Part shown: positions 16,722 to 32,946 of the stretch, in pieces | How the letters are laid out: every line of letters starts with the position of its first letter | Numbering within the stretch: position 1 is the stretch's first letter | Program-made: the position numbers and the translations under genes | The notes under the pieces: generated by a model | Seen by the model: the letters and a program-made list of their open reading frames with translations, nothing else | The model's database searches: none | Told to the model about the DNA's origin: nothing | Virus record (IMG/VR): IMGVR_UViG_3300020037_005798 | Coordinates: 4,764 to 68,763 of that record | Source: a virus | DNA length: 64,000 nucleotides | Direction: 5' to 3' (one strand)

Positions 16722-16808
16722 ATTGGATTATGCACTTACACCTCATGCAGGTTTATCTATGTAAGCATTTTTGGCTATAGCAGGAATAGCCAAGGGATTT
16801 CAACCTAG
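16722..16808 (-). ncRNA. Candidate structured RNA (three-way junction)
   Basis: Stems UUGGCUAU/AUAGCCAA and GCUUACA/UGUAAGU within a weak closing stem; intergenic. Confidence 0.45.
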
Positions 16809-17191
16809 GATTTTAACATTGCTTCTAATTCTTCGATAGATTTGCTTCCCAAACCTTCTTCTTTCTTTTTCTCAATGAGTTCCATAATTTTCTCTCTTTG
16901 AGCTTTATTTTCTTTAGCTTCTTTAAGAGCTAAATTATCTTGTCTTCTAGTAAGATAAACATCTTTTAAAATGTCAAAACGTAATTGTTGAGTTTTATCA
17001 ACAACAACATTGACATCTAAAAAAGCTAAATCATCATCTTCTGTACCTTCTTTTGACAATGTTTTTTTAACAGATTTGATACAATTAGTCAAATCTGTTA
17101 AAGGTAAATCCCATAACTGTTCTACTGTAAGAGGGCCTCTAGTAGTTAAGAATCTTAGCCCTTCTTTACTTGCTTGTTTGTAAATGCTCAT
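16805..17191 (-). CDS. Conserved phage coiled-coil protein
   Basis: LRF.T.RG.LTVEQLWDLPL motif; recalled as partner of the upstream 714 aa protein. Confidence 0.65.
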   Translation of the reverse strand: MSIYKQASKEGLRFLTTRGPLTVEQLWDLPLTDLTNCIKSVKKTLSKEGTEDDDLAFLDVNVVVDKTQQLRFDILKDVYLTRRQDNLALKEAKENKAQREKIMELIEKKKEEGLGSKSIEELEAMLKS

Positions 17192-17219
17192 TTTTATAAA
17201 ATATTTAATTAATAATAGT

Positions 17220-17293
17220 ATGGGAGATAGGACTCGAACCTACAACCTACGCTATGTTTAAGTGCGTTGCTCTACCACTTGAGCTACTCCCAA
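17220..17293 (-). tRNA. Atypical tRNA or tRNA-like RNA with 11-nt anticodon loop
   Basis: TGGGAG/CTCCCA acceptor, D-arm GCTC-AAGTGGTA-GAGC, T-arm GTAGG-TTCGAGT-CCTAT, anticodon arm ACGC-ACTTAAACATA-GCGT. Confidence 0.8.
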
Positions 17294-17298
17294 AATTT

Positions 17299-19443
17299 TT
17301 AAAACTTAATCTTAACTGTTCTTTTAAAAGAACCTGATAATTTAACTATCAATTCATCTTTTACAGTAGCATTAAACCCTAATCCAGATAATTGTTTAGG
17401 TATAGAATCAACTTTAATACTAGTTCCTAATGTTTCTAAAACTTTTCTATGTTTAGCTAAATCAGGAATAAGATTTTCCATATGGAAACTTGTTATAGGT
17501 GTTGGAGAAATACAATTTTCTAACATAAAGAAGTAATGTTTATTACCTACTTTGTTTTCATCCCAATGATTAGGACTTAAACAAACAAGATTAACTTTAT
17601 GAAACTGATTAGTTTCTAAACCATAAAATTCTTTTGTTACTCCTTCTCCTTCACTACAAGGCATATTATGCTCTACAGTAAATTCTCCATTTTTGTATAC
17701 AACTGTTGCTACATTAATATTTTTGTTTGTAGCAATAGAGCTATTATGAGAATAATTAAATGTTTTACCATCAACTTCTATTTCCGCTTTAAAACCTTTA
17801 CTGTTACTTCCTCTAAATTGATTAATCCAGAAAGTATATTTACCTTCTTTCATTTTTTTTAATTCTTTAAAGTAAATATTTTCAGCATGTGTACCAGGAA
17901 CATTACCTCTATCATCTAAATCTAATTGTCCTGATAAAGCTGTAAATTTATTACCAGAATCTTTTCTGTAACCAGCATTAAATCCTATTCTTACACCATC
18001 AGGTTGTAAACACCATAAATCTAAATCAGAATTATCATTTTGATTTTCATCATTCCAGATACCAGAGAATCTTAATACACCATCTATATTACCTCCTTTG
18101 GATTTAACAACTTGTTTAATTTGACTTTTACCTGCAAGATTACCATTAAAAGTCCAAGAATAGTTATTATCCCATTTGAATATAGGAATACTATTAGGAT
18201 TTTTAGAAGTAGTAAGTGTAACAAAATTGTTTTCATGCTCATTAACTACAAAAGCTTCTACAGAAGAACAATTAGGTAATATTTCAGAAATGAATTTTTC
18301 AATAGACACCTCTTCAACACCATCAAATTCATTTCTTTTATGTCTTGTTGAAGCAGCTGGTTTAACTCCATCAAAAATAGAAACATTTTTGATTTTATTA
18401 TTACCACCATTAGCATGCAAAATTTCAGATACTTTAATATCATCTATAGTAGCCATTCTTCTGTCAAAAGATTCTGTAAAACCATTTTCTTCAACAAATT
18501 TTTGTGCTTCTTCAATTTGTCTTTTACTAATAGGAGCAACAGCTTTCATATAATTTACAGGATCTACTCTGTAATTCCAAGTTTTGCAAGCTTCATTAAT
18601 CTCTTTACCTTCAGATAATTCAACACATAATGTACCAATTAATTCATTTCTGAATTTAGCTAAAGGAAACTTATATGAAGTTATCCAACACCAATTGTCT
18701 TTTTTATCAGCAGCTAAAGTATCATATACTTGTTTAAATCCTAATATGGTTTCTACTTTGTGAAGATGTGTTTGGCCATCTAATAAAGAACCTTGAATAA
18801 TAAGATCTCTTACTAATATTAAAGTATCAGCAGAAATTTCATCCATAGCTCTTTTGAAAACATTTTTTGCATCTCTAAATTCACCACTAATAGCTTCAAT
18901 AGATTGATTAGTAAAACTTACAAACTGTTTTGGTAAATCCAAATGCATATGATTAAAAGTATAAGTTTTATCAACTTCTACATGTCCATAAGCAGCAGCT
19001 TCAGTAGCATTATATTGTTTATAGTTTACAGCTGTACCTAATCTAAATATATCATTTGTCTTTTTACAAGACTCATATGGTAAACTATTAAGTTCATCAA
19101 ATGTTTCAATAAATATATCTTTAATATTCGCTTGTTTAACAGCAGTAGCCATAGCTAAAGCACTAGCCTTATACTCTTCATCAGCAAGAACATCAAATAT
19201 TGTTATAATATTATTATTAGCATCTAATGCTACAATATTACCATAACGTCTAACAAAGTTATTACAATGATTACAATTATGATAACTGGATGCTGGATCT
19301 CTAAATACAGGATCATGTTCTTTTGGAAAAGCTTTTAAATACATTGTCCATAATGCATGACCAGATATTTCTGATCTAAATAATTTACCAGTTGCACACA
19401 TCCTAGCAAACTGTTCTTGGAGTTGTTGATTGAAATTTTTCAT
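17299..19443 (-). CDS. Large conserved phage protein with C-terminal DLDL (YfaP/DUF2135-like) domain
   Basis: HNCNHC motif; VLRFSGIWND...SDLDLWC...GQLDLD...AENI. Confidence 0.6.
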   Translation of the reverse strand: MKNFNQQLQEQFARMCATGKLFRSEISGHALWTMYLKAFPKEHDPVFRDPASSYHNCNHCNNFVRRYGNIVALDANNNIITIFDVLADEEYKASALAMATAVKQANIKDIFIETFDELNSLPYESCKKTNDIFRLGTAVNYKQYNATEAAAYGHVEVDKTYTFNHMHLDLPKQFVSFTNQSIEAISGEFRDAKNVFKRAMDEISADTLILVRDLIIQGSLLDGQTHLHKVETILGFKQVYDTLAADKKDNWCWITSYKFPLAKFRNELIGTLCVELSEGKEINEACKTWNYRVDPVNYMKAVAPISKRQIEEAQKFVEENGFTESFDRRMATIDDIKVSEILHANGGNNKIKNVSIFDGVKPAASTRHKRNEFDGVEEVSIEKFISEILPNCSSVEAFVVNEHENNFVTLTTSKNPNSIPIFKWDNNYSWTFNGNLAGKSQIKQVVKSKGGNIDGVLRFSGIWNDENQNDNSDLDLWCLQPDGVRIGFNAGYRKDSGNKFTALSGQLDLDDRGNVPGTHAENIYFKELKKMKEGKYTFWINQFRGSNSKGFKAEIEVDGKTFNYSHNSSIATNKNINVATVVYKNGEFTVEHNMPCSEGEGVTKEFYGLETNQFHKVNLVCLSPNHWDENKVGNKHYFFMLENCISPTPITSFHMENLIPDLAKHRKVLETLGTSIKVDSIPKQLSGLGFNATVKDELIVKLSGSFKRTVKIKF

Positions 19444-19471
19444 GTTTATATATAATTATTGTTTAATAAAT

Positions 19472-19503
19472 AAAAAACACCACACTATTTCTAATGTGGT
19501 GTT
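19472..19503 (-). terminator. Intrinsic terminator closing the ncRNA array
   Basis: AACACCACAUUA-GAAA-UAGUGUGGUGUU then UUUU. Confidence 0.75.
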
Positions 19504-19509
19504 AGTTTT

Positions 19510-20432
19510 TGTAATAACCTCTCGTAAAAGTAATTACATTGTAAACCTAGTATTAGCACCCTCTTGTCTTATTAAATCATCCAGTAAATACATACTGTTG
19601 CATTTCATTTAATAAGAGTAGGGTCACGTAGTTAATATGACGTTTGCTGATTGCTACCAATTAAGGTGTAATACAACGGTTCTTTAACTACTTGCTGAGA
19701 ACTCCCAAGAGTTTATAATAGCATATCTCATACAGCTATATCTCTTCTACTATATTTCTATAGAGTTTCTATCAGGGTTTAGATTTTTTAAATATGCTTC
19801 CAAATATATTACTATATGAATTTTAGAATTATAAGAGCAAGACCCTCTTTTGCTGGACTAAATGCAAACGCTGGATTTTTACTTGACCTATTACGTGGTA
19901 TTTCCAAAGCCCACCACTTATAATTCAAGGACTGTGATAACCTCATCAATACTCCAGTTAGATTAACGTATCCGCTATCGTTACCTTAATTATTCCATGC
20001 ATTGTTTGCGGTTATGGAAGCTGGTTTATATCAACTACATACAGTTTATGTATTAATCCTGTATGGGATTGTTAAAGTACAATTCTAAACTTTTATTAGA
20101 CTATCCTATCAGATATGCCCAAGAGTTCAGGTTGTTGGTGCTAACCCTCTCTCAGAGACTGCTGCATATCATTCATACCCAACGCGTATTTAGATAAGAT
20201 AGTTATTTTAAAAACCACACACCCTTCAAGATAGGAATAAACATTTTCAGCATACTAACGTTGTCCATTGACATTCTACATACTTACTTATCATACTCAA
20301 CAAACGTAACACTTCTTGTAGTGTCGTAAATCCAGGTTATAAACTTTGGTCCCAATCCTATCTTCAAGTCTTATAATAGGAGTTATCCAGTAGGCCAACT
20401 TCATTACTTGTTTGTCTTTCTATGTGTGATTT
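19510..20432 (-). ncRNA. Tandem array of structured non-coding RNAs (about five domains)
   Basis: About 920 nt without a credible ORF, GC-richer than flanks; closing stems define 20212-20432, 20100-20203, 19928-20086, 19826-19926 and 19542-19781. Confidence 0.7.
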
Positions 20433-20437
20433 CTATC

Positions 20438-20752
20438 TTATTTAACTTGTTTTCCTTCTACACCTCTTTTTATTCTGTCAGAGGTTCTTTTGTTCAACCA
20501 TAACAAAGCTTCATCTAATTTTGTTATAGCAATAGCATTTTCTCTACAAGGAAATTTTGATTGTAAGAAGTTTAAACGGTCTAACAGAACTTCAATAACT
20601 TCTTCGTTAGTTGTACCATCAGAAATAGTTAATAATTCTGTAGAACCTTCTTCTCTTGGTTCTTTGTGAATGAATTGAAGAATTTGTCCTTCAGGATCTT
20701 TATCTTCAAAGTTTTCTAGAGCATATGTATGCCCAGGGATAAGATTTGTCAT
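20438..20752 (-). CDS. tad1: Tad1-like anti-defence signalling-molecule sponge
   Basis: GTTNEEVIEVLLDRLNFLQSKFPCRENAIAITKLDEALLWLNKRTSDRIKRGVEG matches the recalled Tad1 core (DRL..FQ...F..REN..A.T..EEAL.W.N.R..DRI.R.V.G). Confidence 0.8.
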   Translation of the reverse strand: MTNLIPGHTYALENFEDKDPEGQILQFIHKEPREEGSTELLTISDGTTNEEVIEVLLDRLNFLQSKFPCRENAIAITKLDEALLWLNKRTSDRIKRGVEGKQVK

Positions 20753-20780
20753 TTTTATTTATTTTTTAAAATGATATTTG

Positions 20781-20788
20781 CAAAGGTA
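20781..20788 (-). promoter_or_regulatory. Bacteroidota-type -7 promoter element
   Basis: TACCTTTG about 30 nt upstream of the tad1 start. Confidence 0.6.
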
Positions 20789-20945
20789 GTGTCTATTTGC
20801 ATTTTATTTAATAATTCTTCTGCAGACATTTTCTTTGCTTCATCAATAATTTTTTGTTTTTGATCTTGAATGTTTAAATCCACTCTAGCCTCACTAGCCA
20901 TATTTTTAAAATTAATCCCTGTTACTTTTAATAACAGGGATATGA

Positions 20946-22535
20946 TTAATACTGAATTAACTCTTCACAACCCTCTTTGTTATGACAGAAAATCTTTCTG
21001 TTTTCACATATTTGAATTTGTTTTCCACCAGAATCAATACAAAGTTGTTTTAACTGATCACTAAATTGTAACAAAGAAACTGCATTGACTTTGTAAGGAA
21101 AGTTTGAAACATGTACTTTATCTTGACCATCATTTATAATTAAAATTTCAGGTAATTCTCTGGATAAATCAACTTTTAAGTTGTGTAATTTTCCACTTTT
21201 TACTTCATCTGCAACATATTGTACAATTCTACCAATGTCTGTTGTACTTCCTCCTGGATAGTTAGAAAAGGTTGACCAAAATTCATTAACACTTTTTTCA
21301 TCTTTAAGATGATAAAATTTCAAATCATAGGTACTACTAACAAAGAAACTAAAGAAGATTTCTGCTTCTCCTTTAATTACATATTTCATTCTTTCCATAA
21401 GGATTCCATTAACCCAATTTTGTTTCTTTCTATCAGACATACTTCCTGAATAATCACAAAGAATAATAAGCTTTTGCTTTTTTTCAGAACGATTAACAGG
21501 CATGTTGATAATTAAATCTTTGGTAAGAAATCTTGTTTCAAAATTAGGTAACATTCTTTGTATCATGTCAACTTTGGTTACTTGTTCAAAAGAAGACATT
21601 ACTTTTTTCTTGTATGTAATAGCATTGTGTACTTCTTTCTCACTAACATCTAATTCTACTTTAAATTCTTCTCCCATTTTACCAACAAGAGAAATATTGT
21701 TTAATGTTTCAAATCTACTATCTTGAGCATATGGATTTTTATCAACAAGATTATTTAGAATAGGATTACAAAAAACATCTCTTTCAAAAACAGCAATAGA
21801 AGTAGAAGATTGACCAGGATTTCCTTGAGCATTACGATTAGCTTCAGTATCTGTTATTCTCCAATGAATAGCTATTGCTTGTTCTAAAGGGCTGAATCCA
21901 GGTAAAAAAGTATCATATATTTCATCAAGAACTTGTTTTTTCTTTGCAAAATCTTCTAGCTTAATAGGAATAGTTTCATCTTTAGAATATAACTCTGATA
22001 AGTATTCTCTATCATCAATCATTTTAAAGTAACAAACTCTGGCGTATTCTTTTATTGTATCAATTTTATCTCTTGAATAAACAGCTACTTTTTGTTTGAT
22101 TTCTTCTGCTGTTGGGGTTAAATAACTTTCAGGTTCTTTAACCATCAACTTAGAATTATCATCAATTTCTGTTGTATCATGAGTAAATCCGTAGAAATTA
22201 TAATTTGACCACTTTTTAGGTGTCCAAGCAAATTCTTTCTTTTTTTCAGGTTCTATCCAATGTGAATGTCTATGATTTCTTTCTCTTGGGTAGCTATCAT
22301 AATAATTATATTCATCTGAAGCTACATAAGCTGATGCACCATAAACATCATCATTATGATTTGGTTTATAAGACCCTGGGCCTTGTCCATAGACAGGAGT
22401 TCTTCTAATAGTATTTTCATGATCTTCTTTTTTACGAAATTCATAACGCATACTATTTGGACCTAGCTCTCTAGCTATTATTTCTCTTACTGAGGGCTTT
22501 TTCTTTTTATTACCTGATTTTGACCACCAATCCAT
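20946..22535 (-). CDS. vWA (MIDAS) domain protein
   Basis: LCDYSGSM (DxSxS), GGSTTDI, IINDG; adjacent to MoxR ATPase. Confidence 0.85.
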   Translation of the reverse strand: MDWWSKSGNKKKKPSVREIIARELGPNSMRYEFRKKEDHENTIRRTPVYGQGPGSYKPNHNDDVYGASAYVASDEYNYYDSYPRERNHRHSHWIEPEKKKEFAWTPKKWSNYNFYGFTHDTTEIDDNSKLMVKEPESYLTPTAEEIKQKVAVYSRDKIDTIKEYARVCYFKMIDDREYLSELYSKDETIPIKLEDFAKKKQVLDEIYDTFLPGFSPLEQAIAIHWRITDTEANRNAQGNPGQSSTSIAVFERDVFCNPILNNLVDKNPYAQDSRFETLNNISLVGKMGEEFKVELDVSEKEVHNAITYKKKVMSSFEQVTKVDMIQRMLPNFETRFLTKDLIINMPVNRSEKKQKLIILCDYSGSMSDRKKQNWVNGILMERMKYVIKGEAEIFFSFFVSSTYDLKFYHLKDEKSVNEFWSTFSNYPGGSTTDIGRIVQYVADEVKSGKLHNLKVDLSRELPEILIINDGQDKVHVSNFPYKVNAVSLLQFSDQLKQLCIDSGGKQIQICENRKIFCHNKEGCEELIQY

Positions 22536-22546
22536 AAAAAGGAGTA

Positions 22547-23689: not shown

Positions 23690-23715
23690 TTTTTCAATGT
23701 TTTAATAATGTTGTT

Positions 23716-23750: not shown

Positions 23751-23760
23751 AATAATTAAT

Positions 23761-24420: not shown

Positions 24421-24422
24421 AA

Positions 24423-26108: not shown

Positions 26109-26178
26109 TTTAGCCCATCCGCATTTAGTACCTTACTAATTCTCCTTTGGAAAGAATAATGATGCGTTAACTGCTAAA
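26109..26178 (-). ncRNA. Twister-like self-cleaving ribozyme (copy 2)
   Basis: P1 UUUAGC/GCUAAA, UAA, P2 CGCA/UGCG, P4 AUUCU/AGAAU with loop UUCCAAAGG, P5 UAGUA/UACUA, GAUGG pseudoknot strand. Confidence 0.7.
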
Positions 26179-26248
26179 AACCCAGAAAATCATAACTGGT
26201 AAAAACTGACTATTAGTTTTTTACAAACGACAAATAAAAAAGAACGTA

Positions 26249-26500: not shown

Positions 26501-26697
26501 AGTTCAATATAATAAAAATCATTAAACATTGACACAATGGAGGCTATCCATAATATCATTAAAATAAGAATTGGTGTGTCTAATTTGACAACCAATGTAT
26601 CATTATCATCATCTTCTTTTAAAAAGAAAATAACAACAATGAATGTAGATACTATTGCTATTAGCATTAGTATAAGTGTTAGTTTAGATAAACCCAT
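26488..26697 (-). CDS. Small membrane protein
   Basis: Two hydrophobic helices separated by an acidic loop. Confidence 0.55.
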   Translation of the reverse strand: MGLSKLTLILMLIAIVSTFIVVIFFLKEDDDNDTLVVKLDTPILILMILWIASIVSMFNDFYYIELWNH

Positions 26698-26714
26698 GTT
26701 GTTGAATTTAGGGA

Positions 26715-26933
26715 TTAAACTTGTATAAGAAAATTTTCATCTGCTTTTCTTTGAAAAGTAAAAATGTCTTGTTCTCCATCATAATTCCATTGACTATTGT
26801 CATTATCAATGATAACTATTATATCAAAACCCCATTCATTTCTACCTAATTCAAATTTTCTTTTATAACCTACTTCATCTAGTTCTTCTAGTGTAGCAGA
26901 TCCTGTCTTTTTTAAGTCGTTTAGTGTAAGCAT
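26715..26933 (-). CDS. Hypothetical protein
   Basis: 72 aa ORF. Confidence 0.5.
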   Translation of the reverse strand: MLTLNDLKKTGSATLEELDEVGYKRKFELGRNEWGFDIIVIIDNDNSQWNYDGEQDIFTFQRKADENFLIQV

Positions 26934-27024
26934 CTAGTCTTTTTATTAAAATAGCATATACTAAGAGATTTTTACTCTTATCCAATAGCAAAGCTACCAT
27001 GTTGTCTTTTACACCAAGTATACA

Positions 27025-27297
27025 CTATTTAATTTCTTTTTGTTCTTTTTTAAAAAATTCTAATAAACCTTCTAACTTACGTGAAGTTAGATAACCATCA
27101 TAATCATAATTGTGCAATACAATTATATTTTCAGGATACTGAAAACTATCTGCAATAAAGAGCATCTCATTTGGAGTTCCTAAAGAACCAATAGACAAGA
27201 ATCTATTTCTTTCTAGTGGATAAAACAAACTTCTTAATAAAGTAGGTTTATCATGTTCTTTAAATCCTAAAGTTTTAACTTCATCTCTACTCATCAT
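27025..27297 (-). CDS. Hypothetical protein
   Basis: 90 aa ORF. Confidence 0.6.
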   Translation of the reverse strand: MMSRDEVKTLGFKEHDKPTLLRSLFYPLERNRFLSIGSLGTPNEMLFIADSFQYPENIIVLHNYDYDGYLTSRKLEGLLEFFKKEQKEIK

Positions 27298-27700
27298 ATT
27301 TTGTATTCATAAATTTCCAAGATGATACCATAAAATGTTCATTATGAACAACATAAGGTTCTTCACAATTAGCATCTTCTATCTTAATTAAGAAAGTAAA
27401 TCCACTTTGCCAATTTATCCCATCATCACTAACGTATATAATTCTTTTATTAGAATTAGTGTTAGTGTCTGAAGACATATCAATTAATGAAGTTATCTCT
27501 TTAAGAGGAAGATTTAGTGGAGGAGAAGGACTCCAATGAAACTTATTATTTTCATAATAATAATATCTACCTTTTACAAGACTAGTACCAAGGGGAAAAA
27601 ATTCTTTACTATATATAAAATTTTTGTATGAAAGATACCCATTCATGTAAATAGAAAATGCCCCAGCTTTAAAATCTTTTATTAATTCAGTTTTATTCAT
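27287..27700 (-). CDS. Paralog family member 4 (VSDDG..W domain)
   Basis: C-terminal IYVSDDGINWQSGFTFL...YVVHNEH..SSWKF. Confidence 0.7.
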   Translation of the reverse strand: MNKTELIKDFKAGAFSIYMNGYLSYKNFIYSKEFFPLGTSLVKGRYYYYENNKFHWSPSPPLNLPLKEITSLIDMSSDTNTNSNKRIIYVSDDGINWQSGFTFLIKIEDANCEEPYVVHNEHFMVSSWKFMNTKYDE

Positions 27701-28127
27701 TTTTATCTCCTTTAATAAATAACCAAATAGAAGTCATATAGAACTCATTATAAACTATAAAATAAGTTGTTCCATCTTTTAACTCTAGTTTGGTTAGAAA
27801 TTTTGCTTCTTCCCAATCTTCATCATTATTACTAACAAATACATTTTGACCCTTAGTAAAGAATAAATTATTGCTTAATTCGACAATTTCACTTAATGTA
27901 TATACTTTTTCTAAGTATTTATTATCTTCTTCATAAGTATTATTAACTATTATAGGATGACTATTCTCTTTAATAGCAAAATATTGTCCTATTCTAGGAA
28001 TATAAGAACCTAAAGCAAGTAATTCTATGGCTAAATTTTTTGCTTTCTTTTCAAAAGGAAGATCAATAAGGACACAAGCATTTTTTCCTTTGAGTCTTTT
28101 GTTTTTAAAATCTTGAATAAATGACAT
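27693..28127 (-). CDS. Paralog family member 3
   Basis: C-terminal VFVSNNDEDW...FL...FIVYNEF..SIWLF. Confidence 0.7.
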   Translation of the reverse strand: MSFIQDFKNKRLKGKNACVLIDLPFEKKAKNLAIELLALGSYIPRIGQYFAIKENSHPIIVNNTYEEDNKYLEKVYTLSEIVELSNNLFFTKGQNVFVSNNDEDWEEAKFLTKLELKDGTTYFIVYNEFYMTSIWLFIKGDKNE

Positions 28128-28129
28128 AA

Positions 28130-28588
28130 TTATTGATTTAAGGGTTCAAAATAAGGCCAAAAAGATGAATTATAAAATTCATCATAAACAATAACTCCAG
28201 GTATAGCAAGTTTTTTAAATGCAACAAGAAATTTATATCCTTTAACATACTCTGAACCATCTTCACTTACTAGTATTTCAGTACCTTTATCACAAACATT
28301 TTTATACTGTTCAACTAAATCTGATATTAAATGAACATGACCATTAGGATAACTATCTCCCATAGCAGCAGCTCCACTTTTCAATACAGCATATTTTGCT
28401 TTTAATGAAGGACTAAATGTTTTATAATCAAATAAAGCTCTCATTAATTCAAGAGAATCATAATTGTTTACATCATATTTTACTACTTCTTCATTATCCA
28501 TTAACTGTTGTCTAAACTTTTTAACATTTAACATACTAATAAGTTTTAAGTTTAACAAATTTCCATTCAGAAGTAACAAGTCTTTCAT
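28130..28588 (-). CDS. Paralog family member 2 (real start probably the internal Met of MLNVKK)
   Basis: C-terminal ILVSEDG...GYKFL...VIVYDEF..SFWPY. Confidence 0.65.
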   Translation of the reverse strand: MKDLLLLNGNLLNLKLISMLNVKKFRQQLMDNEEVVKYDVNNYDSLELMRALFDYKTFSPSLKAKYAVLKSGAAAMGDSYPNGHVHLISDLVEQYKNVCDKGTEILVSEDGSEYVKGYKFLVAFKKLAIPGVIVYDEFYNSSFWPYFEPLNQ

Positions 28589-29183
28589 TGTGAACTACAT
28601 GTTTAGCTTCACAATCTTCTTCAGGTATTTCAGCCAAATAAGTAAATCCATCCTCCCAACTTTGCCCATCATCACTTACTAATACCTTAGAAAGAAATTT
28701 TAAAGTTGGGGTTACTTCAATAAGATCATTAATGTTTATAACATCATTAGTGCTTGATGTATTTCTTTTTGTTACATTTCCTGCCTCTCCTGTATAAAAT
28801 TTACCTGCTTCCCAATATGCAACATTAACTAAAGGCCATAATTCCTTCATTTTCTTTACCTTTTCAGTAGTACATTCATCTAAATAAATAGATACTGTTA
28901 TATTTTTTAATTTGTCTTGAATTGATTCGATGTTTTCCATTGTTTCTTTTGTGTTTATTAAGTCAATTAAATTTATTTCTTTCCCAGGTCCTAATATGTT
29001 ATGTGTTGAAGTAAATACTCTACCATTTTTAAAATAATAATAAGTATTATCTTTAATACGAAAAAAACCTATATTAAATAAGTTTCTCATTAAAGATATT
29101 CCATCCCATCCTACAATATTTATATTTTCAACCTTTACAGCTAAGAGTCCTTGTTTAATTTCTGCTGATTGTTTATCCGTCAT
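28536..29183 (-). CDS. Paralog family member 1
   Basis: C-terminal VLVSDDGQSWEDGFTYL...HVVHNER..SEWKF. Confidence 0.7.
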   Translation of the reverse strand: MTDKQSAEIKQGLLAVKVENINIVGWDGISLMRNLFNIGFFRIKDNTYYYFKNGRVFTSTHNILGPGKEINLIDLINTKETMENIESIQDKLKNITVSIYLDECTTEKVKKMKELWPLVNVAYWEAGKFYTGEAGNVTKRNTSSTNDVININDLIEVTPTLKFLSKVLVSDDGQSWEDGFTYLAEIPEEDCEAKHVVHNERLVTSEWKFVKLKTY

Positions 29184-29465
29184 AAGAATTATCTTTAAGA
29201 ATGTGAATTATGTATAAAGTAATTAATACAAATAATGTAATTACTGGTATATAATGATACTCTTTAAAATAAAAAGGAAAAACTAATGATACCAATAAGC
29301 TTATTAATATTCCTATTAACAAGAATGCTTTATATACTTTTTTCATACTATTTTTCTTTAGTAAAAATGTTAATAATAATATCTACAGTTTTGATAAAAA
29401 CATAACCAAACCCAAAAATTAAAAGTCCTCCAGTAACGATAGCTAAAGCTCCTGCAAATACGCTT

Positions 29466-29861
29466 CTAAAAGGTTCCATCTTTCAAAGTTTTTTCTAACC
29501 ATTCTTTAGCTTCATCAACACTACTAGACATATGTCCATTACAGTTTTCACTTGCAGTCATATTAGCAACATCCATTACTATTTCTCTAAACTCTTCAGT
29601 TAATCTATTATTATTTCTAATAATACTTAATAAAGAAATACCAGAATTAAAAGTTGCTATTTGTCTCCACATTAGAGTACCAGCATCACTATTATCCTTA
29701 CTACCACCTTTTCTACCTGCATATCTAATAGCAGTATTATCAAATCCAAAGAACTGCATATTTCTTACAGCATTAACAGCATAAATCTCTTCTTGAGTTT
29801 CTCCTGTTAAATCCCAACCAATAGGATTATTTTTTTCGTCTTTTACGATTTCTAATTTCAT
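29466..29861 (-). CDS. Hypothetical protein
   Basis: 131 aa ORF. Confidence 0.6.
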   Translation of the reverse strand: MKLEIVKDEKNNPIGWDLTGETQEEIYAVNAVRNMQFFGFDNTAIRYAGRKGGSKDNSDAGTLMWRQIATFNSGISLLSIIRNNNRLTEEFREIVMDVANMTASENCNGHMSSSVDEAKEWLEKTLKDGTF

Positions 29862-29889
29862 AGTATTTGTTTTTAAGATTGATAAAAAT

Positions 29890-29917
29890 AAAAAACCCCC
29901 ATATTACTATGAGGGTT
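29890..29917 (-). terminator. Terminator after tmRNA
   Basis: AACCCUCAUA-GUAA-UAUGGGGGUU then a U-run. Confidence 0.7.
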
Positions 29918-29919
29918 AG

Positions 29920-30178
29920 TAAAAATTTCGCTTTTCTTGCGGAATTATGCTACCATTCTTAATGGTGCATTATTCATTTGGATAACTTTTGAAGTTATTG
30001 TTTAATAATTCTCGTTGAGTCCTACTGTATTGCTGTCAAATCCCGTTATCCCCTGATTTACCGCTTGTTATTTAAACTCGTAGCGATGAAACGAGGCAAT
30101 CAACTTATAAACGGATTTCTAGTGGAGATAGAGGGAGTTGAACCCTCGTCCAAACAATGTTCAAAAACAAGTCAACAA
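29920..30178 (-). ncRNA. ssrA: Circularly permuted (two-piece) tmRNA
   Basis: Acceptor piece GGAC-GAGGG-UUCAACU-CCCUC-UAUCUCC-A (30123-30151) precedes coding piece starting GGGGAUA...GAUUUGAC (30053); G3:U70 pair; tag frame SKVIQMNNAPLRMVA* at 29945-29992. Confidence 0.88.
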
Positions 30179-30202
30179 ATTATTATGCTGTAAATATATA
30201 AA

Positions 30203-30502
30203 TTAAAAATCATCTGCAACACCATTGTAAGCTAAATGACTATAATCAACATAAGCGTATTTAGAATTTCTTGCATTATGATTTTGTATTCTATGAAATT
30301 TATCTTCTTTTGCTAAACCACAATTTAATTTGCGCCAAACTTGTTTATAGTTTTCATCTGTTATTTCTTTAAAATCAGTATAAATTCTAAGATTAAATTT
30401 AAGCTGTTTTGTAGTAAGATTTTTAACTCTTCTTATTTCTGCTTTATTTAAATTTAAAAGAAGTAATTTATTTTTAAATTCTGTTGGGTTTAATTTAGCC
30501 AT
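30203..30502 (-). CDS. Hypothetical protein
   Basis: 99 aa basic protein. Confidence 0.55.
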   Translation of the reverse strand: MAKLNPTEFKNKLLLLNLNKAEIRRVKNLTTKQLKFNLRIYTDFKEITDENYKQVWRKLNCGLAKEDKFHRIQNHNARNSKYAYVDYSHLAYNGVADDF

Positions 30503-30694
30503 TTTATTTAGGTTTATAAGTTATTAATATAGTCAAATGAGCATCATCACTTTTAACAATTTTAGTACCATCTTCATTCCAATAACTTTTAGTTGATAAA
30601 ATAGTCAAACTATCTATTATTGTATTGTACTTACAAAAATCATTAAGTAAAGAATTAACATCTTTAACAGTACCAGATAATGTTGTTTGCATAA

Positions 30695-30955
30695 TTATTC
30701 TTCTTCTAAACTATATTCAACAATGTTTTCATGTATGTTTAAACATTTCCAGGTAACTTTTCTATAACCATAAAAATCAACTCTATCTCCTTCATTTAAA
30801 TGTATTTCTTGATCTAGTATGATATAAACATTTTGATTTTCTTTATCAAGAATAAATCCTTTAGATTTATATTCCTTTTCATAATAATCAAAACATTCTT
30901 TTAAAGAAGTAGCAGAAGTAAAGATTTCGTTACTAATTTCAAATTTTGTTTTCAT
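30695..30955 (-). CDS. Hypothetical protein
   Basis: 86 aa ORF just downstream of the twister-like RNA. Confidence 0.55.
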   Translation of the reverse strand: MKTKFEISNEIFTSATSLKECFDYYEKEYKSKGFILDKENQNVYIILDQEIHLNEGDRVDFYGYRKVTWKCLNIHENIVEYSLEEE

Positions 30956-30971
30956 AAATTTCTTTATTTAT

Positions 30972-31068
30972 ATTCAATCCCTCTGTATTCAGTTGTAAGG
31001 TAGGTAGTTATTTTATCCTTATCTCAACTGGTCATCCTTGGGAAATGACAATGATACATTGCTTAAAT
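30972..31068 (-). ncRNA. Twister-like self-cleaving ribozyme (copy 1)
   Basis: P1 AUUUAA/UUGAAU, CAA, P2 UGUA/UACA, P4 GUCAU/AUGAC with loop UUCCCAAGG, P5 CAGUUG/CAACUG, GAGGG pseudoknot strand. Confidence 0.75.
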
Positions 31069-31069
31069 T

Positions 31070-31510
31070 CATAAGGGTAAGAAGTGTAATAGCTTTGAGG
31101 GTTAGTCCCCTCTGCTTACATTACACTATACCCTATGTTAAAATCACTTGTCCAAATTCTAGTGGAATAGAATAGCAATACTTAATGCTCTAACTCATTC
31201 TATCTCTACAATAAACACAACTGCTAGTACAGTTTATAATTCTCATACGTTAAACATCGTCTACTCTATGTGAGGGAAATTCCATGAATTATTGTTTATC
31301 TTCAAGCAAGTGATTTATATTATTAAAACAGAAGGTTTGACGTTAGTTACACTCCCACTAGGAACTACACTTATTTATGACGGACTAAACCGCATCCTAA
31401 CTTCTATTTTATATTATTAAACTCTCACAAGGTTGCACCTTGTAGGATTTACTTAGTTGCATAAAATCCTTTTTCTCTACCACTATATCTAATATTAGTG
31501 TAGCCTTGAG
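31070..31510 (-). ncRNA. Second array of structured RNAs (four domains)
   Basis: Long hairpin 31070-31137; AAAUCACUUG/CAAGUGAUUU-closed domain 31141-31316; AAAAUAGAAG/CUUCUGUUUU-closed domain 31325-31410; multi-hairpin domain 31422-31510. Confidence 0.65.
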
Positions 31511-31668
31511 ATTTTAATTCTTCTCTGAGTTCTGATTTAACATTATCTGATAAATCAATAAAAACTGTTTTAGGTGCTGCTTTTCTTGCCATTGTTATTT
31601 AAATTTAATTGTTAATAGTTGAACCCTTTGATTTTTGATCTCAGGGAACAACTAAAAAGACTTTTATT

Positions 31669-32838
31669 TTATTTTATTTTACTAGTTACATATTCAGAAG
31701 CTATATTTCTCATAATACTAAAAGCAATATATTGATTTGTATATCCCCCTTCTGAAGTAGCGTCACGATTAATTAATATTCTGTTTGCTTCCCATCTAAC
31801 TATTGAAAATCTAGTTGTAATAACAGATTTTAAAGGTAAATCAATATTAAATGCTTTAAGCATATAAATTATTTCAGGGAATTTAGCAGAATCATCAGTA
31901 ATAATATAATCTTCTTGAGAATCTGAAGTAATACCATCAATGATTTTTGCTTTAACTAATTGGTCATAAAGATATTCAGGAAGAACATAATCAAAAGTTG
32001 TTGTACCCATAAGACCAGCTAATTTTTGCATTAAAGAGGAGCCAAACTTTTTACCACTAGCAACCATGTCTTTAATAACTTCTAAATTAGATTCAGAAAA
32101 TTTTCTTGGTTTCATATCATTATATCCTGAAGATAAAACAAGGTGCATACATCTATGATCAATACCTTCAGTAATAAAATCTCTCATGGCTTTATCAAAA
32201 TCACTTTCAAGAGCTAATCTGCTTTCATTAATCTCAATATTATTTAAACTAACATCAAAATTAATTTCTTTATTATCATCAGAACATCTAATACCTTGTC
32301 TGTATAAATTAAAACAATCACTACTTCTTTCATACATACTACCTAAAGCATTAGTGAAAATAGGAGTTCTTTCTAAAGCAAAATAATGATCAAAATTTGA
32401 TATTACTCTCTCTAATTCACTATTCATAGGAATATAATAAGTAGTTTTACCATCTTCACCAATCATATCAGGATTAACCAAAGATTTAATTGTACAATTT
32501 CCTTCATCAAGAGCATTAGAAATAGTTTCTCTTAAAGCCATCCAACCAGTCCATTTAGGACCCATATTAGAAGTAATAGATGTATCAATACCATTTACAG
32601 TTAATACTTTAACAGGATTATCTCTGTGAAGTACAACTTTAGTATCTAACTTCATCTCTTCTGTACCTCTAAATACTTTAGGCACACAATTATTTCTAAA
32701 ATACCAAGCTAAACTAAACTTGTTACCACTACCAAATTCACCAATTTTACCTTCAACTCCTCTTTTTGTAGAAGAACCAATAAGTGTTAAATCTTCAGTC
32801 TCAATAAGACCATCGTTTGTTACTTTTAAATAAACCAT
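31669..32838 (-). CDS. GHKL/HATPase-like ATP-binding protein
   Basis: VTNDG, LIGSSTKR, IGEFGSGNKF and LRETISNALDE motifs. Confidence 0.65.
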   Translation of the reverse strand: MVYLKVTNDGLIETEDLTLIGSSTKRGVEGKIGEFGSGNKFSLAWYFRNNCVPKVFRGTEEMKLDTKVVLHRDNPVKVLTVNGIDTSITSNMGPKWTGWMALRETISNALDEGNCTIKSLVNPDMIGEDGKTTYYIPMNSELERVISNFDHYFALERTPIFTNALGSMYERSSDCFNLYRQGIRCSDDNKEINFDVSLNNIEINESRLALESDFDKAMRDFITEGIDHRCMHLVLSSGYNDMKPRKFSESNLEVIKDMVASGKKFGSSLMQKLAGLMGTTTFDYVLPEYLYDQLVKAKIIDGITSDSQEDYIITDDSAKFPEIIYMLKAFNIDLPLKSVITTRFSIVRWEANRILINRDATSEGGYTNQYIAFSIMRNIASEYVTSKIK

Positions 32839-32864
32839 TTCTTTTCTTTTTAGTTATTATTAAT

Positions 32865-32946
32865 TTTAGTCTGATCATCAGTATTCAGTGACTAATCTGA
32901 ATATACAGCTCTCTACATTAACACATATGAGAGAGCTGTTTCACTA
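32865..32946 (-). ncRNA. Hammerhead ribozyme (type II, pseudoknotted)
   Basis: GAAA - stem III CAGCUCUC/GAGAGCUG - UA - stem I UAUUCAG/CUGAAUA - CUGAUGA; loop I UUAGUC pairs with 3' GACUAA; predicted cleavage between 32904 and 32903. Confidence 0.88.

What the first reader, a model, noticed from the sequence alone, without database searches (positions are those of the whole stretch)
16722..32946. RNA-rich early region: ribozymes, two ncRNA arrays, permuted tmRNA and an odd tRNA on one phage arm
Seen: about 14 separately folded RNA elements, all best read on the minus strand and interleaved with small early genes. They comprise one hammerhead, two twister-like RNAs, about ten unassigned domains, a tmRNA and a tRNA-like RNA. 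Known: self-cleaving ribozymes and unassigned RAGATH-type motifs occur near phage genes. Inference: the early transcripts are cut into a set of small RNA effectors acting alongside protein anti-defence factors. This is my best candidate for an undescribed system in the window.
Basis: partly seen in the sequence, partly recalled or inferred. Interest (0 to 1): 0.9.

Follow-up and report, generated by a model that had tools for sequence, protein, structure and literature searches.

The report
Phage early-region stable RNA gene cluster
Among its early genes this crAss-like phage carries a cluster of RNA genes: a two-piece tmRNA, an odd tRNA, a probable hammerhead ribozyme, and members of widespread structured RNA families that match no catalogued family and whose role in infection is unknown.

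Summary

**Known kinds**
- A circularly permuted tmRNA lies at 29945-30180(-). It scores above Rfam's cut-off and is conserved in a TARA relative.
- A tRNA lies at 17219-17293(-). It has a 9-nt anticodon loop.
- A type II hammerhead lies at 32865-32946(-). It scores below the cut-off but has a complete core and a 6-bp loop-tail pseudoknot.

**The two "twister-like" RNAs**
They are two of five copies of one covarying motif. No Rfam family matches them, even at E<=10.

**Main result: the two "arrays"**
The arrays hold members of conserved RNA families that match nothing in Rfam 15.
- An A-type RNA lies at 31141-31316, with a paralogue D at 20212-20432. Both have a 10-11-bp closing stem and swappable hairpins. 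Their two loops stay complementary: CUAG/CUAG, CAAGA/UCUUG, and UAUCA/UGAUA in phage phi14:2.
- A B-type RNA lies at about 19551-19706.
- Exact core words of A and B occur in 38 and 92 IMG/VR stretches.
- All 130 nearby tRNA/tmRNA genes share the strand of A or B.
- In phi14:2, B lies in the ORF-free early span whose transcripts were published as very abundant "long non-coding RNAs" of unknown function.

Other readers of this scan had flagged look-alike RNAs on other genomes without naming them. Function remains inferred. Interest is moderately high.

The parts
17219..17293 (-). tRNA-like gene with a 9-nt anticodon loop (CUUAAACAU), a U1.U72 mismatch, an A.A pair closing the anticodon stem and no encoded CCA. 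It sits between the 714-aa and 128-aa genes.
   Evidence: RF00005 scores 51.8 bits. ARAGORN finds it at 17218-17293. The sequence was read. In L001-L004 the two flanking genes are adjacent with no tRNA between them. One strain contig (run X11) lacks one base at 17262, which is loop position 32.
19476..19503 (-). Intrinsic terminator hairpin that ends the D...B array, just before the 714-aa gene.
   Evidence: One search finds 12 pairs followed by a T-run. The z-score is about -3.5.
19551..19706 (-). B-type RNA. Its conserved three-way-junction core is GAGUUCUCAGCAAGUAG / CUACGUGACCCUACUCUUAU / AUAAGAcAAGAGGGUGCUAA, and it carries two variable hairpins.
   Evidence: The blocks are shared with many loci, including phi14:2. 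A 17-mer of the core occurs in 92 IMG/VR stretches. There are 44 unique full copies.
19804..20055 (-). Middle modules of array 1, function unknown. 19832-19918 and 20029-20055 are shared with L146 at 91-93% identity. 19804-19830 is shared with L045.
   Evidence: A GC island at 19832-19922 reaches 0.44. There are too few copies to test covariation.
20212..20432 (-). D RNA, an A-type paralogue. Features: an 11-bp closing stem, P2 GACAAACA/UGUUUGUU, a central hairpin loop CAAGA, a 3' hairpin loop UCUUG, then a U-run. It starts 5 nt after the stop of the Tad1-like gene.
   Evidence: Colinear blocks occur in L053, L151, L119, L125, L115 and L087. The consensus fold of 6 sequences is. Coordinates were read.
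26109..26178 (-). Twister-like motif, copy 1. It has an outer stem UUUAGC/GCUAAA, an inner stem CGCAU/AUGCG, CAUU, a hairpin AUUCU-UUCCAAAGG-AGAAU and a hairpin UAGUA/UACUA. It ends about 23 nt before the ATG at 26085.
29894..30214 (-). Circularly permuted (two-piece) tmRNA gene with its terminator. The acceptor/T-arm piece comes first, then an intervening segment, then the GGGGAUA piece and the tag frame ...NNAPLRMVA*. The G3:U70 pair is present. The 3' end reads ACUA, not CCA.
   Evidence: RF04321 matches 29945-30180 at 52.3 bits. ARAGORN calls tmRNA* at 29825-30214. The homologue in L019 scores 57.4 bits and its tag ends APLRAVA*. The frame was read. The terminator is at 29894-29917.
30978..31058 (-). 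Twister-like motif, copy 2. It has UGUAU/AUACA, CAUU, GUCAU-UUCCCAAGG-AUGAC, a long hairpin, then GAGGGA. It ends about 22 nt before the ATG at 30955.
   Evidence: In L018 it is identical except for one loop base, and the ORF just downstream is swapped.
31076..31140 (-). Stable hairpin between the A RNA and twister-like copy 2.
   Evidence: z is -3.8, with 0 of 200 shuffles folding as well.
31141..31316 (-). A-type RNA. Features: a 10-bp closing stem AAAUCACUUG/CAAGUGAUUU, P2 GAUAAACA/UGUUUAUU, a central hairpin loop UACUAG, a 3' hairpin UCCA-CUAGAAUU-UGGA, two variable hairpins and a U-run.
   Evidence: nhmmer gives E=1e-33.
31419..31442 (-). Conserved hairpin ACAAGGUGCAACCUUGU at the start of array 2.
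   Evidence: 24-31-nt matches at 96-100% identity in six loci: L053, L067, L064, L051, L061 and L044. Also seen.
32865..32946 (-). Probable type II hammerhead. It has the CUGAUGA and GAAA cores and a GUA triplet. The predicted cut lies between 32904 and 32903. Stem I has 7 bp and stem III 9 bp. Loop I UUAGUC pairs with the 3' tail GACUAA. It ends 26 nt before the ATG at 32838.
   Evidence: RF02276 scores 30 bits against gathering 37. z is -3.5. It is present in L018 and L020, where the only changes inside the element fall in loop III.

Best explanation
The stretch is a phage stable-RNA gene cluster embedded in the leftward early operon of a crAss-related phage found in wastewater and sludge.

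**Shown**
- It encodes a two-piece tmRNA, one aberrant tRNA and a hammerhead-type element.
- It encodes two copies of a recurrent pseudoknot-prone junction motif placed just before start codons.
- It encodes three discrete structured RNAs from two widespread virus-specific families: A-type (A and D) and B-type.
- A-type RNAs are closed by a 10-11-bp stem followed by a U-run. They have an invariant junction core and a pair of hairpin loops that stay complementary to each other while changing sequence between subfamilies.
- B-type RNAs have about 55 nearly invariant junction nucleotides.
- In both families the peripheral hairpins are replaced wholesale and recombined between phages.

**Inferred**
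- The cluster is transcribed early on the minus strand.
- The tRNA and tmRNA pieces are released by host tRNA-processing enzymes. The hammerhead, and possibly the twister-like motif, trim the 5' leaders of downstream ORFs. Terminators end the units.
- A, D and B accumulate as stable RNAs, as published for the homologous region of phi14:2.
- My best guess for their action is that the invariant junction core binds one conserved partner, either a host or phage protein or another copy of the RNA through the loop-loop contact. The variable hairpins would serve as stabilising or specificity modules.
- They would then be host-takeover RNAs rather than mRNA leaders. This last step is a guess, at about one in three.
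For: **Known elements**
- tmRNA, tRNA and hammerhead.
- The tmRNA is conserved in L019 with compensatory changes. The T-arm is GAGGG/CCCUC against CCGAG/CUCGG. The acceptor is GGGGAUA/UAUCUCC against GGGGUCG/CGACUCC. Both keep G3:U70, and the tag ends APLRxVA* in both.

**Family A**
- A 22-mer occurs in 38 IMG/VR contigs. With the window these gave 39 sequences, 31 of them distinct.
- I aligned 25 of them. 97.4% of 796 cells pair, against 93.3% when shuffled and at most 47% when slid.
- 7 of 32 pairs and 26 cells show changes on both sides. 1 of 500 and 0 of 500 shuffles reach these values.
- Every one-sided change gives G.U on this strand.
- The 3' hairpin loop holds CUAG in 25 of 25, while its stem varies: UCCA, UCUA, GAAG, AGUU, CCAU.

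**phi14:2 A-like copy**
- nhmmer gives E=6e-7.
- It has a fully different closing stem, AAGCUCUUUA/UAAAGAGCUU, and loops UAUCA/UGAUA.

**Family D**
- It has the same plan, with loops CAAGA/UCUUG.

**Family B**
- A 17-mer occurs in 92 stretches, giving 44 unique full copies.
- I aligned 31 sequences, the window plus 30 of these. P2 has 4 of 8 pairs changed on both sides, in 11 cells (2 of 500 shuffles).
- The free strand of P3 is invariant in 31 of 31.
- V1 and V2 hairpins occur in different combinations. Examples are L120/L132 against L148/L149, L096 against L145, and L098 against L119.

**Context**
- A and B lie on the same strand in 22 of 22 loci that hold both.
- 48 of 125 loci with A or B have a tRNA or tmRNA within 3 kb, and 130 of 130 such genes share the strand.
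- B lies 12-83 nt before a tmRNA in L075, L134 and L149.
- B is virus-specific. A gapped core pattern found 2 stretches in 185,579 species genomes. Both are MAG contigs, and one is 100,089 bp long.

**Expression**
- In phi14:2, B lies at 3194-3361(+) and a tmRNA starts at 4031. Both sit in the ORF-free span between g004 and g006.
- bioRxiv 10.1101/2020.03.07.982082 (passages read) reports two long intergenic regions, at the g004-g005 and g005-g006 junctions. They are transcribed rightward above most genes from the earliest time point and do not decline. It calls them long non-coding RNAs of unknown function.
Against: **No direct evidence on this phage**
- No RNA data were seen for it.

**Weak thermodynamic support**
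- Family A has mean z -2.2.
- Family B has mean z only -0.9, and its reverse complement folds better, at -2.0.
- The window's own A and B have z -2.1 and -0.9.

**Ascertainment**
- A and B members were collected with an exact word from the core. The invariance of that word is therefore by construction, and their prevalence is not measured.
- Some loci are duplicates of one contig (L008/L072, L010/L056, L073/L126), so locus counts are inflated.

**Gaps in conservation and structure**
- The nearest sequenced relative with diverged DNA (L019) keeps only the tmRNA and has no arrays. The arrays are therefore dispensable in that lineage.
- A closing helix for B (AGC/GCU) is broken by G-to-A in 3 of 31 sequences.

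**Uncertain details**
- The mapping of B onto the published phi14:2 RNA-seq peaks is by annotation only. Figures and supplementary tables were not available.
- The odd tRNA varies in loop length between strains, which fits decay as well as function.
- The partner-binding function is pure inference.
Confidence: 0.55

Rival explanations
1. The early transcripts are cut by the hammerhead and twister-like ribozymes into a set of small RNA effectors, which work with protein anti-defence factors such as the Tad1-like protein.
For: - A hammerhead core is present.
- The twister-like motif recurs with covarying stems: five copies with four different 5-bp stems. NAA stands directly 5' of the inner stem, as UAA in three copies, AAA in one and CAA in one. 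A GAGGG-type tail can pair with the UCCC loop.
- All three elements end 20-26 nt before a start codon.
- The D...B array begins 5 nt after the Tad1-like gene.
Against: - No twister, pistol, hatchet or other ribozyme model matches the motif at E<=10.
- The ribozyme-type elements flank ORFs, not the conserved RNAs.
- No ribozyme reached gathering score in 139 kb of 13 loci with A and/or B.
- The hammerhead is absent from 3 of 5 loci that hold the homologous gene. The CUGAUGA core is also absent within 300 nt upstream of the gene in 7 of 7 more distant loci.
- Only 1 locus with A or B also has a Tad1 homologue.
Confidence: 0.15
2. The conserved blocks of A, D and B act at the DNA level. They would be crossover points or sites for exchanging cassettes in a hypervariable early region, comparable to the promoter-stem-loop cassettes recalled for T4-type phages. 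Any RNA structure would be secondary.
For: - The blocks are identical over 27-39 nt between phages whose neighbouring protein is only about 49% identical.
- V1 and V2 hairpins are reshuffled between phages.
- One strain contig replaces 19566-19803, which includes most of B, with 839 other letters.
- An ORF swap in L018 begins within about 10 nt of the end of twister-like copy 2.
Against: - Compensatory changes keep the helices.
- All one-sided changes give G.U on the minus strand. On the other strand they would be A.C.
- The loop pairs covary between subfamilies.
- The homologous phi14:2 region is highly transcribed.
- Recombination at conserved cores is expected for any conserved RNA gene.
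Confidence: 0.1
3. A, D and B are cis-acting parts of the early mRNAs. They would be stabilisers, processive antiterminators or UTR regulators for neighbouring genes, not free-standing RNAs.
For: - They lie inside a polycistronic arm between ORFs. D starts 5 nt after a stop codon and B ends at a terminator.
- The twister-like motif sits in 5' leaders.
Against: - The neighbouring genes are not conserved. Of 13 window proteins tested against 125 loci with A or B, none is found in more than 7.
- The RNAs keep company with tRNA and tmRNA genes instead.
- A-type RNAs have their own closing stem and U-run.
Confidence: 0.1
4. Apart from the tmRNA, tRNA and hammerhead, the arrays are decaying remnants of genes or tRNA clusters and have no function.
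For: - The interior of array 1 is not thermodynamically unusual.
- L019 lacks the arrays.
- Related phages carry tRNA arrays at the corresponding place.
Against: - ARAGORN at 80% thresholds finds no pseudo-tRNA on the minus strand in array 1.
- tblastx of the arrays found no coding homology, only block-wise nucleotide identity on both strands.
- Conservation and covariation are seen across dozens of phages.
Confidence: 0.04

Closest known systems
Abundant early 'long non-coding RNAs' of Cellulophaga crAss-like phage phi14:2 (bioRxiv 10.1101/2020.03.07.982082; passages read)
   Same: - They lie in the same genome region, the early arm, and on the same strand as early transcription.
- phi14:2 carries a B-type RNA at 3194-3361, with three exact core blocks of 20-25 nt.
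- It carries an A-like RNA at about 1285-1567.
- It carries a tmRNA starting at 4031.
   Different: - The paper reports transcription only. In the passages I read it gives no structures, families or conservation.
- Whether its two peaks coincide with B and the tmRNA was not checked, because figures and supplements are not held.
- ARAGORN gives the phi14:2 tmRNA as the ordinary one-piece form, whereas this window has the permuted form.
Phage-encoded two-piece tmRNAs: Melnitz and pelagimyophages (PMC9004378, passages read); gut crAss phages cr125_1 and cr114_1 (NC_055900, NC_055897)
   Same: - The gene order is permuted, with alanine identity, in an early-region location.
- PMC9004378 counts 53 two-piece tmRNAs among 133 unique phage tmRNAs, 50 of them from marine or aquatic phages.
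- ARAGORN calls the annotated crAss tmRNAs permuted.
   Different: - No glutamine riboswitch was found here.
- The tag (...APLRMVA) differs.
- Outside the T-arm, this tmRNA shares sequence only with L019 and L018.
Type II hammerhead ribozyme (Rfam RF02276)
   Same: - All core nucleotides are present, with a GUA cleavage triplet and three stems in type II order.
- A loop I to 3'-tail pseudoknot is present. It is 6 bp here, where the Rfam consensus has UGGC/GCCA.
   Different: - It scores 7 bits below gathering.
- Stem II is minimal and imperfect, and loop III is long and AU-rich.
- Cleavage has not been tested.
Twister ribozyme (Rfam twister families); features recalled from memory, not from a call
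   Same: - A hairpin loop UUCCCAAGG resembles the recalled twister loop UCCCAAG.
- NAA (UAA in three copies) stands before an inner stem.
- A GAGGG-type strand can pair with the loop.
- The nested two-stem plus hairpin topology is similar.
   Different: - No Rfam model matches at E<=10.
- The junction sequence CAUU differs.
- The outer stem is clear in copy 1 but weak in copy 2.
GOLLD and ROOL large phage-associated RNAs (PMC12286853, abstract in search listing) and the manA motif of cyanophages (bioRxiv 10.64898/2026.07.01.735769, passages read); T4 tRNA-region stable RNAs species 1 and 2 (recalled)
   Same: - They are structured RNAs of unknown function carried by phages. I recall them lying next to tRNA genes.
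- GOLLD, ROOL and manA assemble through intermolecular contacts, including kissing loops.
- A-type RNAs have a conserved complementary loop pair, palindromic CUAG in family A.
   Different: - There is no sequence or model similarity.
- A, D and B are smaller, at 100-290 nt.
- Oligomerisation of A-type RNAs is untested. The loop pair may be intramolecular.

Membership tests
tmRNA_permuted (RF04321) | Covariance-model score at or above the curated gathering score | tested here: met
   52.3 bits against 47, with the full model 1-213 matched.
tmRNA_permuted (RF04321) | Permuted order: the 3' acceptor/T-arm piece lies upstream of the 5' acceptor piece and tag frame | tested here: met
   The cmscan alignment shows it. 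ARAGORN calls tmRNA*.
tmRNA_permuted (RF04321) | Acceptor stem with G3:U70 (alanine identity) and a canonical T-arm | tested here: met
   GGGGAUA pairs with UAUCUCC, giving G3.U70, and the T-arm is GAGGGUUCAACUCCCUC. The pair is kept through compensatory changes in L019.
tmRNA_permuted (RF04321) | Tag reading frame ending in a hydrophobic C-terminus and a stop codon | tested here: inconclusive
   The frame reads ...NNAPLRMVA* and matches L019's ...APLRAVA*. ARAGORN proposes a different tag for the window (PQEKRNFY*). The resume codon was not determined.
Hammerhead type II (RF02276) | Covariance-model score at or above gathering (37 bits) | tested here: not met
   30 bits, E=0.013 in 18 kb.
Hammerhead type II (RF02276) | Catalytic core CUGAUGA ... 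GAAA and a UH cleavage site between stems III and I | tested here: met
   All are present, with a GUA triplet.
Hammerhead type II (RF02276) | Tertiary contact between loop I and the 3' tail | tested here: met
   UUAGUC in loop I is complementary to GACUAA in the tail, giving 6 bp (sequence).
Hammerhead type II (RF02276) | Self-cleavage | not testable with these tools
   This needs an in-vitro transcript.
Twister ribozyme (Rfam twister models) | Match to a twister covariance model | tested here: not met
   There is no twister hit at E<=10 in 18 kb. There is no hit of any family on 30950-31100. Copy 1 was covered only.
Twister ribozyme (Rfam twister models) | Double pseudoknot and a conserved cleavage-site adenosine | tested here: inconclusive
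   One candidate pseudoknot is UCCA/UGGG in copy 1 and UCCC/GGGA in copy 2, with one covarying pair. NAA stands before the inner stem in 5 of 5 copies (UAA in three, AAA in one, CAA in one). A second pseudoknot was not found.
tRNA (RF00005) | Cloverleaf scoring above gathering | tested here: met
   51.8 bits against 29.
tRNA (RF00005) | Seven-nucleotide anticodon loop and a paired 1:72 position, as in elongator tRNAs | tested here: not met
   The loop is the 9-nt CUUAAACAU, 31:39 is A.A, and 1:72 is U.U. ARAGORN's 'Phe (aaa)' only names the middle of the loop.
Any Rfam 15 family, for A, D and B (including GOLLD, ROOL and Y RNA/YrlA) | Match to a curated covariance model | tested here: not met
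   No match at E<=10 falls on any of the three elements in 16000-34000. Nothing but tRNA and tmRNA reaches gathering in 13 related loci, phi14:2 included.
Tad1 (Acb2/Tad1 hairpin, PF24729), for the neighbouring gene 20438-20752 | Pfam score above the curated cut-off | tested here: met
   28.5 bits against 27, covering residues 54-88 only. This is marginal. No fold or ligand test was done.

The most novel reading that the evidence does not exclude
A-type and B-type RNAs may be a new class of phage-made, virus-specific functional RNAs that act without being translated. In A-type RNAs the two loops stay complementary: CUAG/CUAG, which is palindromic, then CAAGA/UCUUG and UAUCA/UGAUA. These loops could pair between molecules, so that the RNAs build RNA-only multimers of the kind recently seen for ROOL, GOLLD and manA. 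B-type RNAs could be a ligand- or protein-binding sponge, or a ribozyme, whose about 55 invariant junction nucleotides form the active pocket. Together with the phage's own tmRNA and tRNAs they would form an RNA-based host-takeover module shared by crAss-related phages.
Probability: 0.15. Interest if true: 0.9.

Novelty: new variant of a known kind. Interest (0 to 1): 0.7.

Why it matters
crAss-like phages are among the most abundant viruses known, and their early regions are almost entirely unannotated. The one transcriptome study of a cultured member found that intergenic RNAs were among the most abundant phage transcripts, and it left their function open.

This window gives that open question sequence families to work with. 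Two RNA architectures are conserved across dozens of uncultivated phages, each with an invariant core, swappable hairpins and, in one of them, a covarying loop-loop contact. Members are present in phi14:2, a phage that can be grown and has public RNA-seq data. The question of what these RNAs do therefore becomes directly testable by deletions, pull-downs, structure work and cleavage assays.

The work also shows that the tmRNA, tRNAs and the new RNAs form one co-oriented RNA gene cluster. This points to translation or RNA metabolism as the target. The tmRNA, tRNA and hammerhead are by themselves ordinary.

Tried and rejected
**Alternative genetic code.** With TAG=Q no new long ORF appears in the two long gaps, and the standard code already gives tightly packed genes.

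**Decayed tRNA array.** ARAGORN at 90% and 80% thresholds finds no minus-strand candidate in array 1.

**Coding remnants.** tblastx of the arrays against the fetched loci gave only block-wise nucleotide identity in all frames.

**Thermodynamics.**
- Whole-region z-scores are -2.5 (994 nt, 20 shuffles), -3.8 (493 nt) and -5.8 (882 nt, which holds terminators and promoter-region hairpins).
- The sliding scan gave only a weak excess of structure in intergenic windows.
- A first script for this timed out.

**Bacteroidetes-type promoter pattern (recalled consensus).** It gave 2 matches against 4.3 expected, so it is uninformative.

**The 14-nt 'linker' TTTAATAATATAAA.** There are only the two exact copies. 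Counts with up to 2 mismatches are at chance level, 16 against 15.1. The second copy overlaps the A-rich 5' flank of the A RNA.

**Direct repeats.** Nothing relevant was found in 16000-34400.

**Similarity to catalogued phages.**
- Megablast and blastn of the region against the phage collection found nothing for array 1.
- For 29862-31668 the only matches were to the tmRNA T-arm.

**Distant relatives.** Loci found through proteins (L001-L017, L021-L032) share almost no intergenic sequence.

**Public sequencing runs.**
- No RNA holder is listed for this phage, so expression could not be examined.
- The contigs laid were short and the variant table was cut (392 rows not shown). Compensatory variation within the species could therefore not be scored.

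**Odd tRNA.** It has no close relative among 184 tRNAs predicted in the fetched loci. The best global identity is 0.74, no better than to unrelated tRNAs.

I used nhmmer profiles instead.
Supplementary Tables 2-4 of the phi14:2 paper may hold the exact transcript boundaries.

**Literature.** I searched 'permuted tmRNA'+phage, crAss-like+tmRNA, crAss-like+'non-coding RNA'+intergenic, Crassvirales+ncRNA and crAssphage+'structured RNA'. None of them turned up a description of these families.

Full report
**What the window is**

The window is bases 4764-68763 of a 68.8-kb virus record that is about 59% complete.
- Its genes run leftward up to about 34200 and rightward from about 34370, and GC skew switches at the same place.
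- The right arm encodes a terminase, a portal and a major head protein.
- The terminase has relatives in 128 phage records, mostly Bacteroides, Flavobacterium and Cellulophaga crAss-type phages. The closest, at 42% identity, is Leptolyngbya phage Lbo-JY46, and the head protein matches only that phage.
- I therefore call the phage crAss-related, not a member of a named family.
- Near-identical DNA is held by 20 public runs from 15 studies of wastewater, sludge, manure and fresh water.
- Diverged relatives occur in TARA ocean assemblies.

**Known RNA kinds**

*tmRNA*
- Rfam at gathering thresholds gives two hits in 64 kb.
- The first is a permuted tmRNA at 29945-30180(-), with 52.3 bits against a cut-off of 47. 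ARAGORN agrees.
- It has the T-arm, an acceptor stem with G3:U70, ACUA instead of CCA, and a terminator at 29894-29917.
- The TARA relative L019 is about 70-74% identical in shared genes. It has the homologous gene at 57.4 bits, with compensatory changes in the T-arm and acceptor stem. Its tag ends APLRAVA*, and the window frame reads ...NNAPLRMVA*.
- ARAGORN's tag for the window lies downstream of this frame and is probably wrong.
- Two-piece tmRNAs in phages are already described. PMC9004378 (passages read) counts 53 of them, 50 marine or aquatic.
- The RefSeq records of gut crAss phages cr125_1 and cr114_1 carry annotated tmRNAs that ARAGORN calls permuted.
- This part is therefore a new member of a known kind.

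*tRNA*
- The second gathering hit is a tRNA at 17219-17293(-), with 51.8 bits.
- Its D- and T-arms are canonical.
- The anticodon loop has nine bases (CUUAAACAU), the pair closing the anticodon stem is A.A, and 1:72 is U.U.
- It sits between two genes that are adjacent in four related loci.
- It has no close relative among 184 tRNAs in the fetched loci.
- One strain contig lacks a base at loop position 32.
- I cannot tell whether it decodes. The first six loop bases match what I recall of a UAA-anticodon loop. The indel polymorphism suits a relaxed or non-decoding role as well.

*Hammerhead*
- In a permissive search of 16000-34000, the only further match with E below 0.05, other than a partial match of the one-piece tmRNA model over the same gene, is Hammerhead_II at 32865-32946(-). 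It scores 30 bits against gathering 37, E=0.013.
- The alignment covers the whole model. CUGAUGA, GAAA and a GUA triplet are in place.
- Loop I (UUAGUC) is complementary to the 3' tail (GACUAA), where the family consensus has its own pseudoknot.
- It folds with z -3.5.
- It is kept in the two near-identical contigs, where the only changes inside the element fall in loop III.
- It is absent upstream of the homologous gene in L019, L021 and L022. The CUGAUGA core is also absent there in seven more distant loci.
- It is probably a real, sporadic hammerhead.

**The twister-like pair**

- The stretches before the ORFs at 25906-26085 and 30695-30955 share one motif.
- The motif is an inner stem (CGCAU/AUGCG against UGUAU/AUACA), then CAUU, then a hairpin with loop UUCCNAAGG. 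The 5-bp stem of that hairpin differs at three positions and stays complementary (AUUCU/AGAAU against GUCAU/AUGAC). A variable hairpin follows, then a tail (GAUGGG or GAGGGA) that can pair with the loop.
- A structural search of 1.59 Mb of fetched phage DNA, on both strands, found five copies with four different hairpin stems. Only six sites in all have the loop closed by a perfect 5-bp stem.
- NAA stands directly before the inner stem in 5 of 5 copies. It reads UAA in three, AAA in one and CAA in one.
- The two downstream proteins are unrelated.
- In L018 the ORF after copy 2 is replaced by another ORF, starting within about 10 nt of the motif's end.
- The resemblance to twister rests on features I recall. 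No Rfam model matches, even on a 151-nt search.
- I treat it as a real recurrent motif of unknown activity and give self-cleavage about one chance in four.

**The arrays**

The two ORF-poor stretches are not exceptional by folding energy. They do hold GC-rich islands like those of the tRNA and tmRNA. Comparison with other phages resolved them.

*Family A (31141-31316)*
- A translated search against loci fetched for another reason revealed three blocks of 27-39 nt inside array 2. They are identical in L008 and L010, whose neighbouring protein is only 49% identical to the window's.
- A 22-mer from the middle block occurs in 38 IMG/VR contigs.
- With the window these gave 39 sequences, 31 of them distinct.
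- Nearly all have the same plan:
  - a 10-bp closing stem followed by a U-run;
  - a helix GAUAAACA/UGUUUAUU;
  - a variable hairpin;
  - a central hairpin with loop UACUAG;
  - a second variable hairpin;
  - a 3' hairpin with loop CUAGAAUU.
- I aligned 25 of them. 97.4% of cells pair, against 93.3% shuffled and at most 47% slid. Seven pairs and 26 cells carry changes on both sides, and every one-sided change gives G.U on this strand.
- The 3' loop keeps CUAG in 25 of 25 sequences while its stem changes.

*Family D (20212-20432)*
- The first 221 nt of array 1 has the same plan with other letters.
- It has an 11-bp closing stem, GACAAACA/UGUUUGUU, a central loop CAAGA and a 3' loop UCUUG.
- It is colinear in six loci.

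*phi14:2 A-like copy*
- Cellulophaga phage phi14:2 has a diverged copy at about 1285-1567.
- Its closing stem is entirely different, and its loops are UAUCA and UGAUA.
- The two loops therefore remain complementary through three different sequences. This is the strongest single argument for a specific loop-loop contact.

*Family B (about 19551-19706)*
- The 3' part of array 1 shares three blocks with many loci.
- A 17-mer occurs in 92 IMG/VR stretches, giving 44 unique full copies.
- The core is about 55 nearly invariant nucleotides around a three-way junction.
- I aligned 31 sequences, the window plus 30 of these copies. One helix (GUAGUUAA/UUAACUAC) covaries in its outer half, with 11 cells (2 of 500 shuffles). 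The free strand of the other helix is invariant in 31 of 31.
- The two peripheral hairpins are unrelated between phages and occur in different combinations.
- Mean folding z is only -0.9.
- A gapped core pattern found only two stretches in one genome each of 185,579 prokaryote species. Both are MAG contigs, and one has the length of a phage genome.

*Other modules*
- The middle of array 1 shares further modules with single loci.
- One strain replaces 19566-19803 with 839 other letters.
- A conserved hairpin opens array 2.

**Context**

- The fetched loci include some duplicates of one contig.
- A and B are on the same strand in 22 of 22 loci that hold both, and mostly within 2 kb of each other.
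- 48 of 125 loci with A or B have tRNA or tmRNA genes within 3 kb, and 11 have a tmRNA. All 130 such genes share the strand.
- B lies 12-83 nt before a tmRNA in L075, L134 and L149.
- Rfam finds only tRNAs and a one-piece tmRNA in 139 kb of 13 such loci.
- The relative L019 has the tmRNA but no arrays.
- In phi14:2, B and a tmRNA both lie in the 1.7-kb ORF-free span between g004 and g006, where spurious ORFs were removed from the record in 2020.
- The phi14:2 preprint (passages read) reports two long intergenic regions there. They are transcribed above most genes, from the earliest time point and without later decline. [quoted passage not shown]
- I did not see figures or supplements, so the match to the peaks is by position only.

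**Verdict**

- The region is a real RNA gene cluster.
- The tmRNA, tRNA and hammerhead are ordinary or mildly odd.
- The new content is that the 'arrays' hold members of two conserved, virus-specific RNA architectures. They are absent from Rfam 15, and I found no description of them in five literature searches.
- Other readers of this scan flagged look-alikes on other genomes without naming them.
- How they work is not shown. My best guess is stable early RNAs whose invariant junction binds a conserved partner.

Noticed in passing
window 30699-30964 against L018 9806-10009: A contig that is 98.7% identical over about 10 kb carries a different small ORF in place of ORF 30695-30955. The breakpoints lie just after twister-like copy 2 and at the next start codon, so this looks like a clean single-gene cassette swap.
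   Followed up: partly
window 24300-24449 and 26550-26699 (minus strand, inside coding sequence): These are the strongest local folds of the whole scan, with z -8.3 and -5.2. They lie inside or at junctions of small early genes, not in intergenic DNA.
   Followed up: no
window 20946-23689 (-): This is a gene pair in the phage early region. One gene is a 380-aa AAA+ protein with a bpMoxR domain (PF20030, E=4e-14). The other is a 529-aa protein with a weak, sub-threshold VWA hit. The pair recalls MoxR-VWA systems. Homologues of both recur near A or B RNAs in L008, L010, L056 and L118.
   Followed up: partly
window 20438-20752 (-): This is a 104-aa protein with a marginal Acb2/Tad1 hairpin-domain hit (28.5 bits against cut-off 27). 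The D...B RNA array starts 5 nt after its stop codon.
   Followed up: partly
L033 and L034 (NC_055900, NC_055897; gut crAss phages cr125_1 and cr114_1): The annotated tmRNAs of about 445 nt are called permuted by ARAGORN, with tag GNFYVTDYTRIAA*. They sit in a small-gene region a few genes upstream of a 'ribosomal protein-like protein' and a sigma factor.
   Followed up: partly
L002 and L003: Homologues of the 714-aa protein, at 57-60% identity, lie on IMG/VR contigs of 325 kb and 676 kb. That is far larger than a crAss-type genome, so these are either very large phages or chimeric assemblies.
   Followed up: no
L073 (phi14:2) about 1795-1850; also variable hairpins in L057, L058, L061/L068, L118 and L128: T-arm-like hairpins (GGUUCGAAUCC type) occur inside the variable hairpins of A- and B-type RNAs and in a phi14:2 intergenic region, with no tRNA cloverleaf around them.
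   Followed up: no
window 36128-43672 (+): The closest cultured relative by terminase (42% identity) is a cyanophage, Leptolyngbya phage Lbo-JY46, and the head protein matches only that phage (26%). The host of the window's phage is unknown. Its DNA is found in wastewater and sludge runs.
   Followed up: partly
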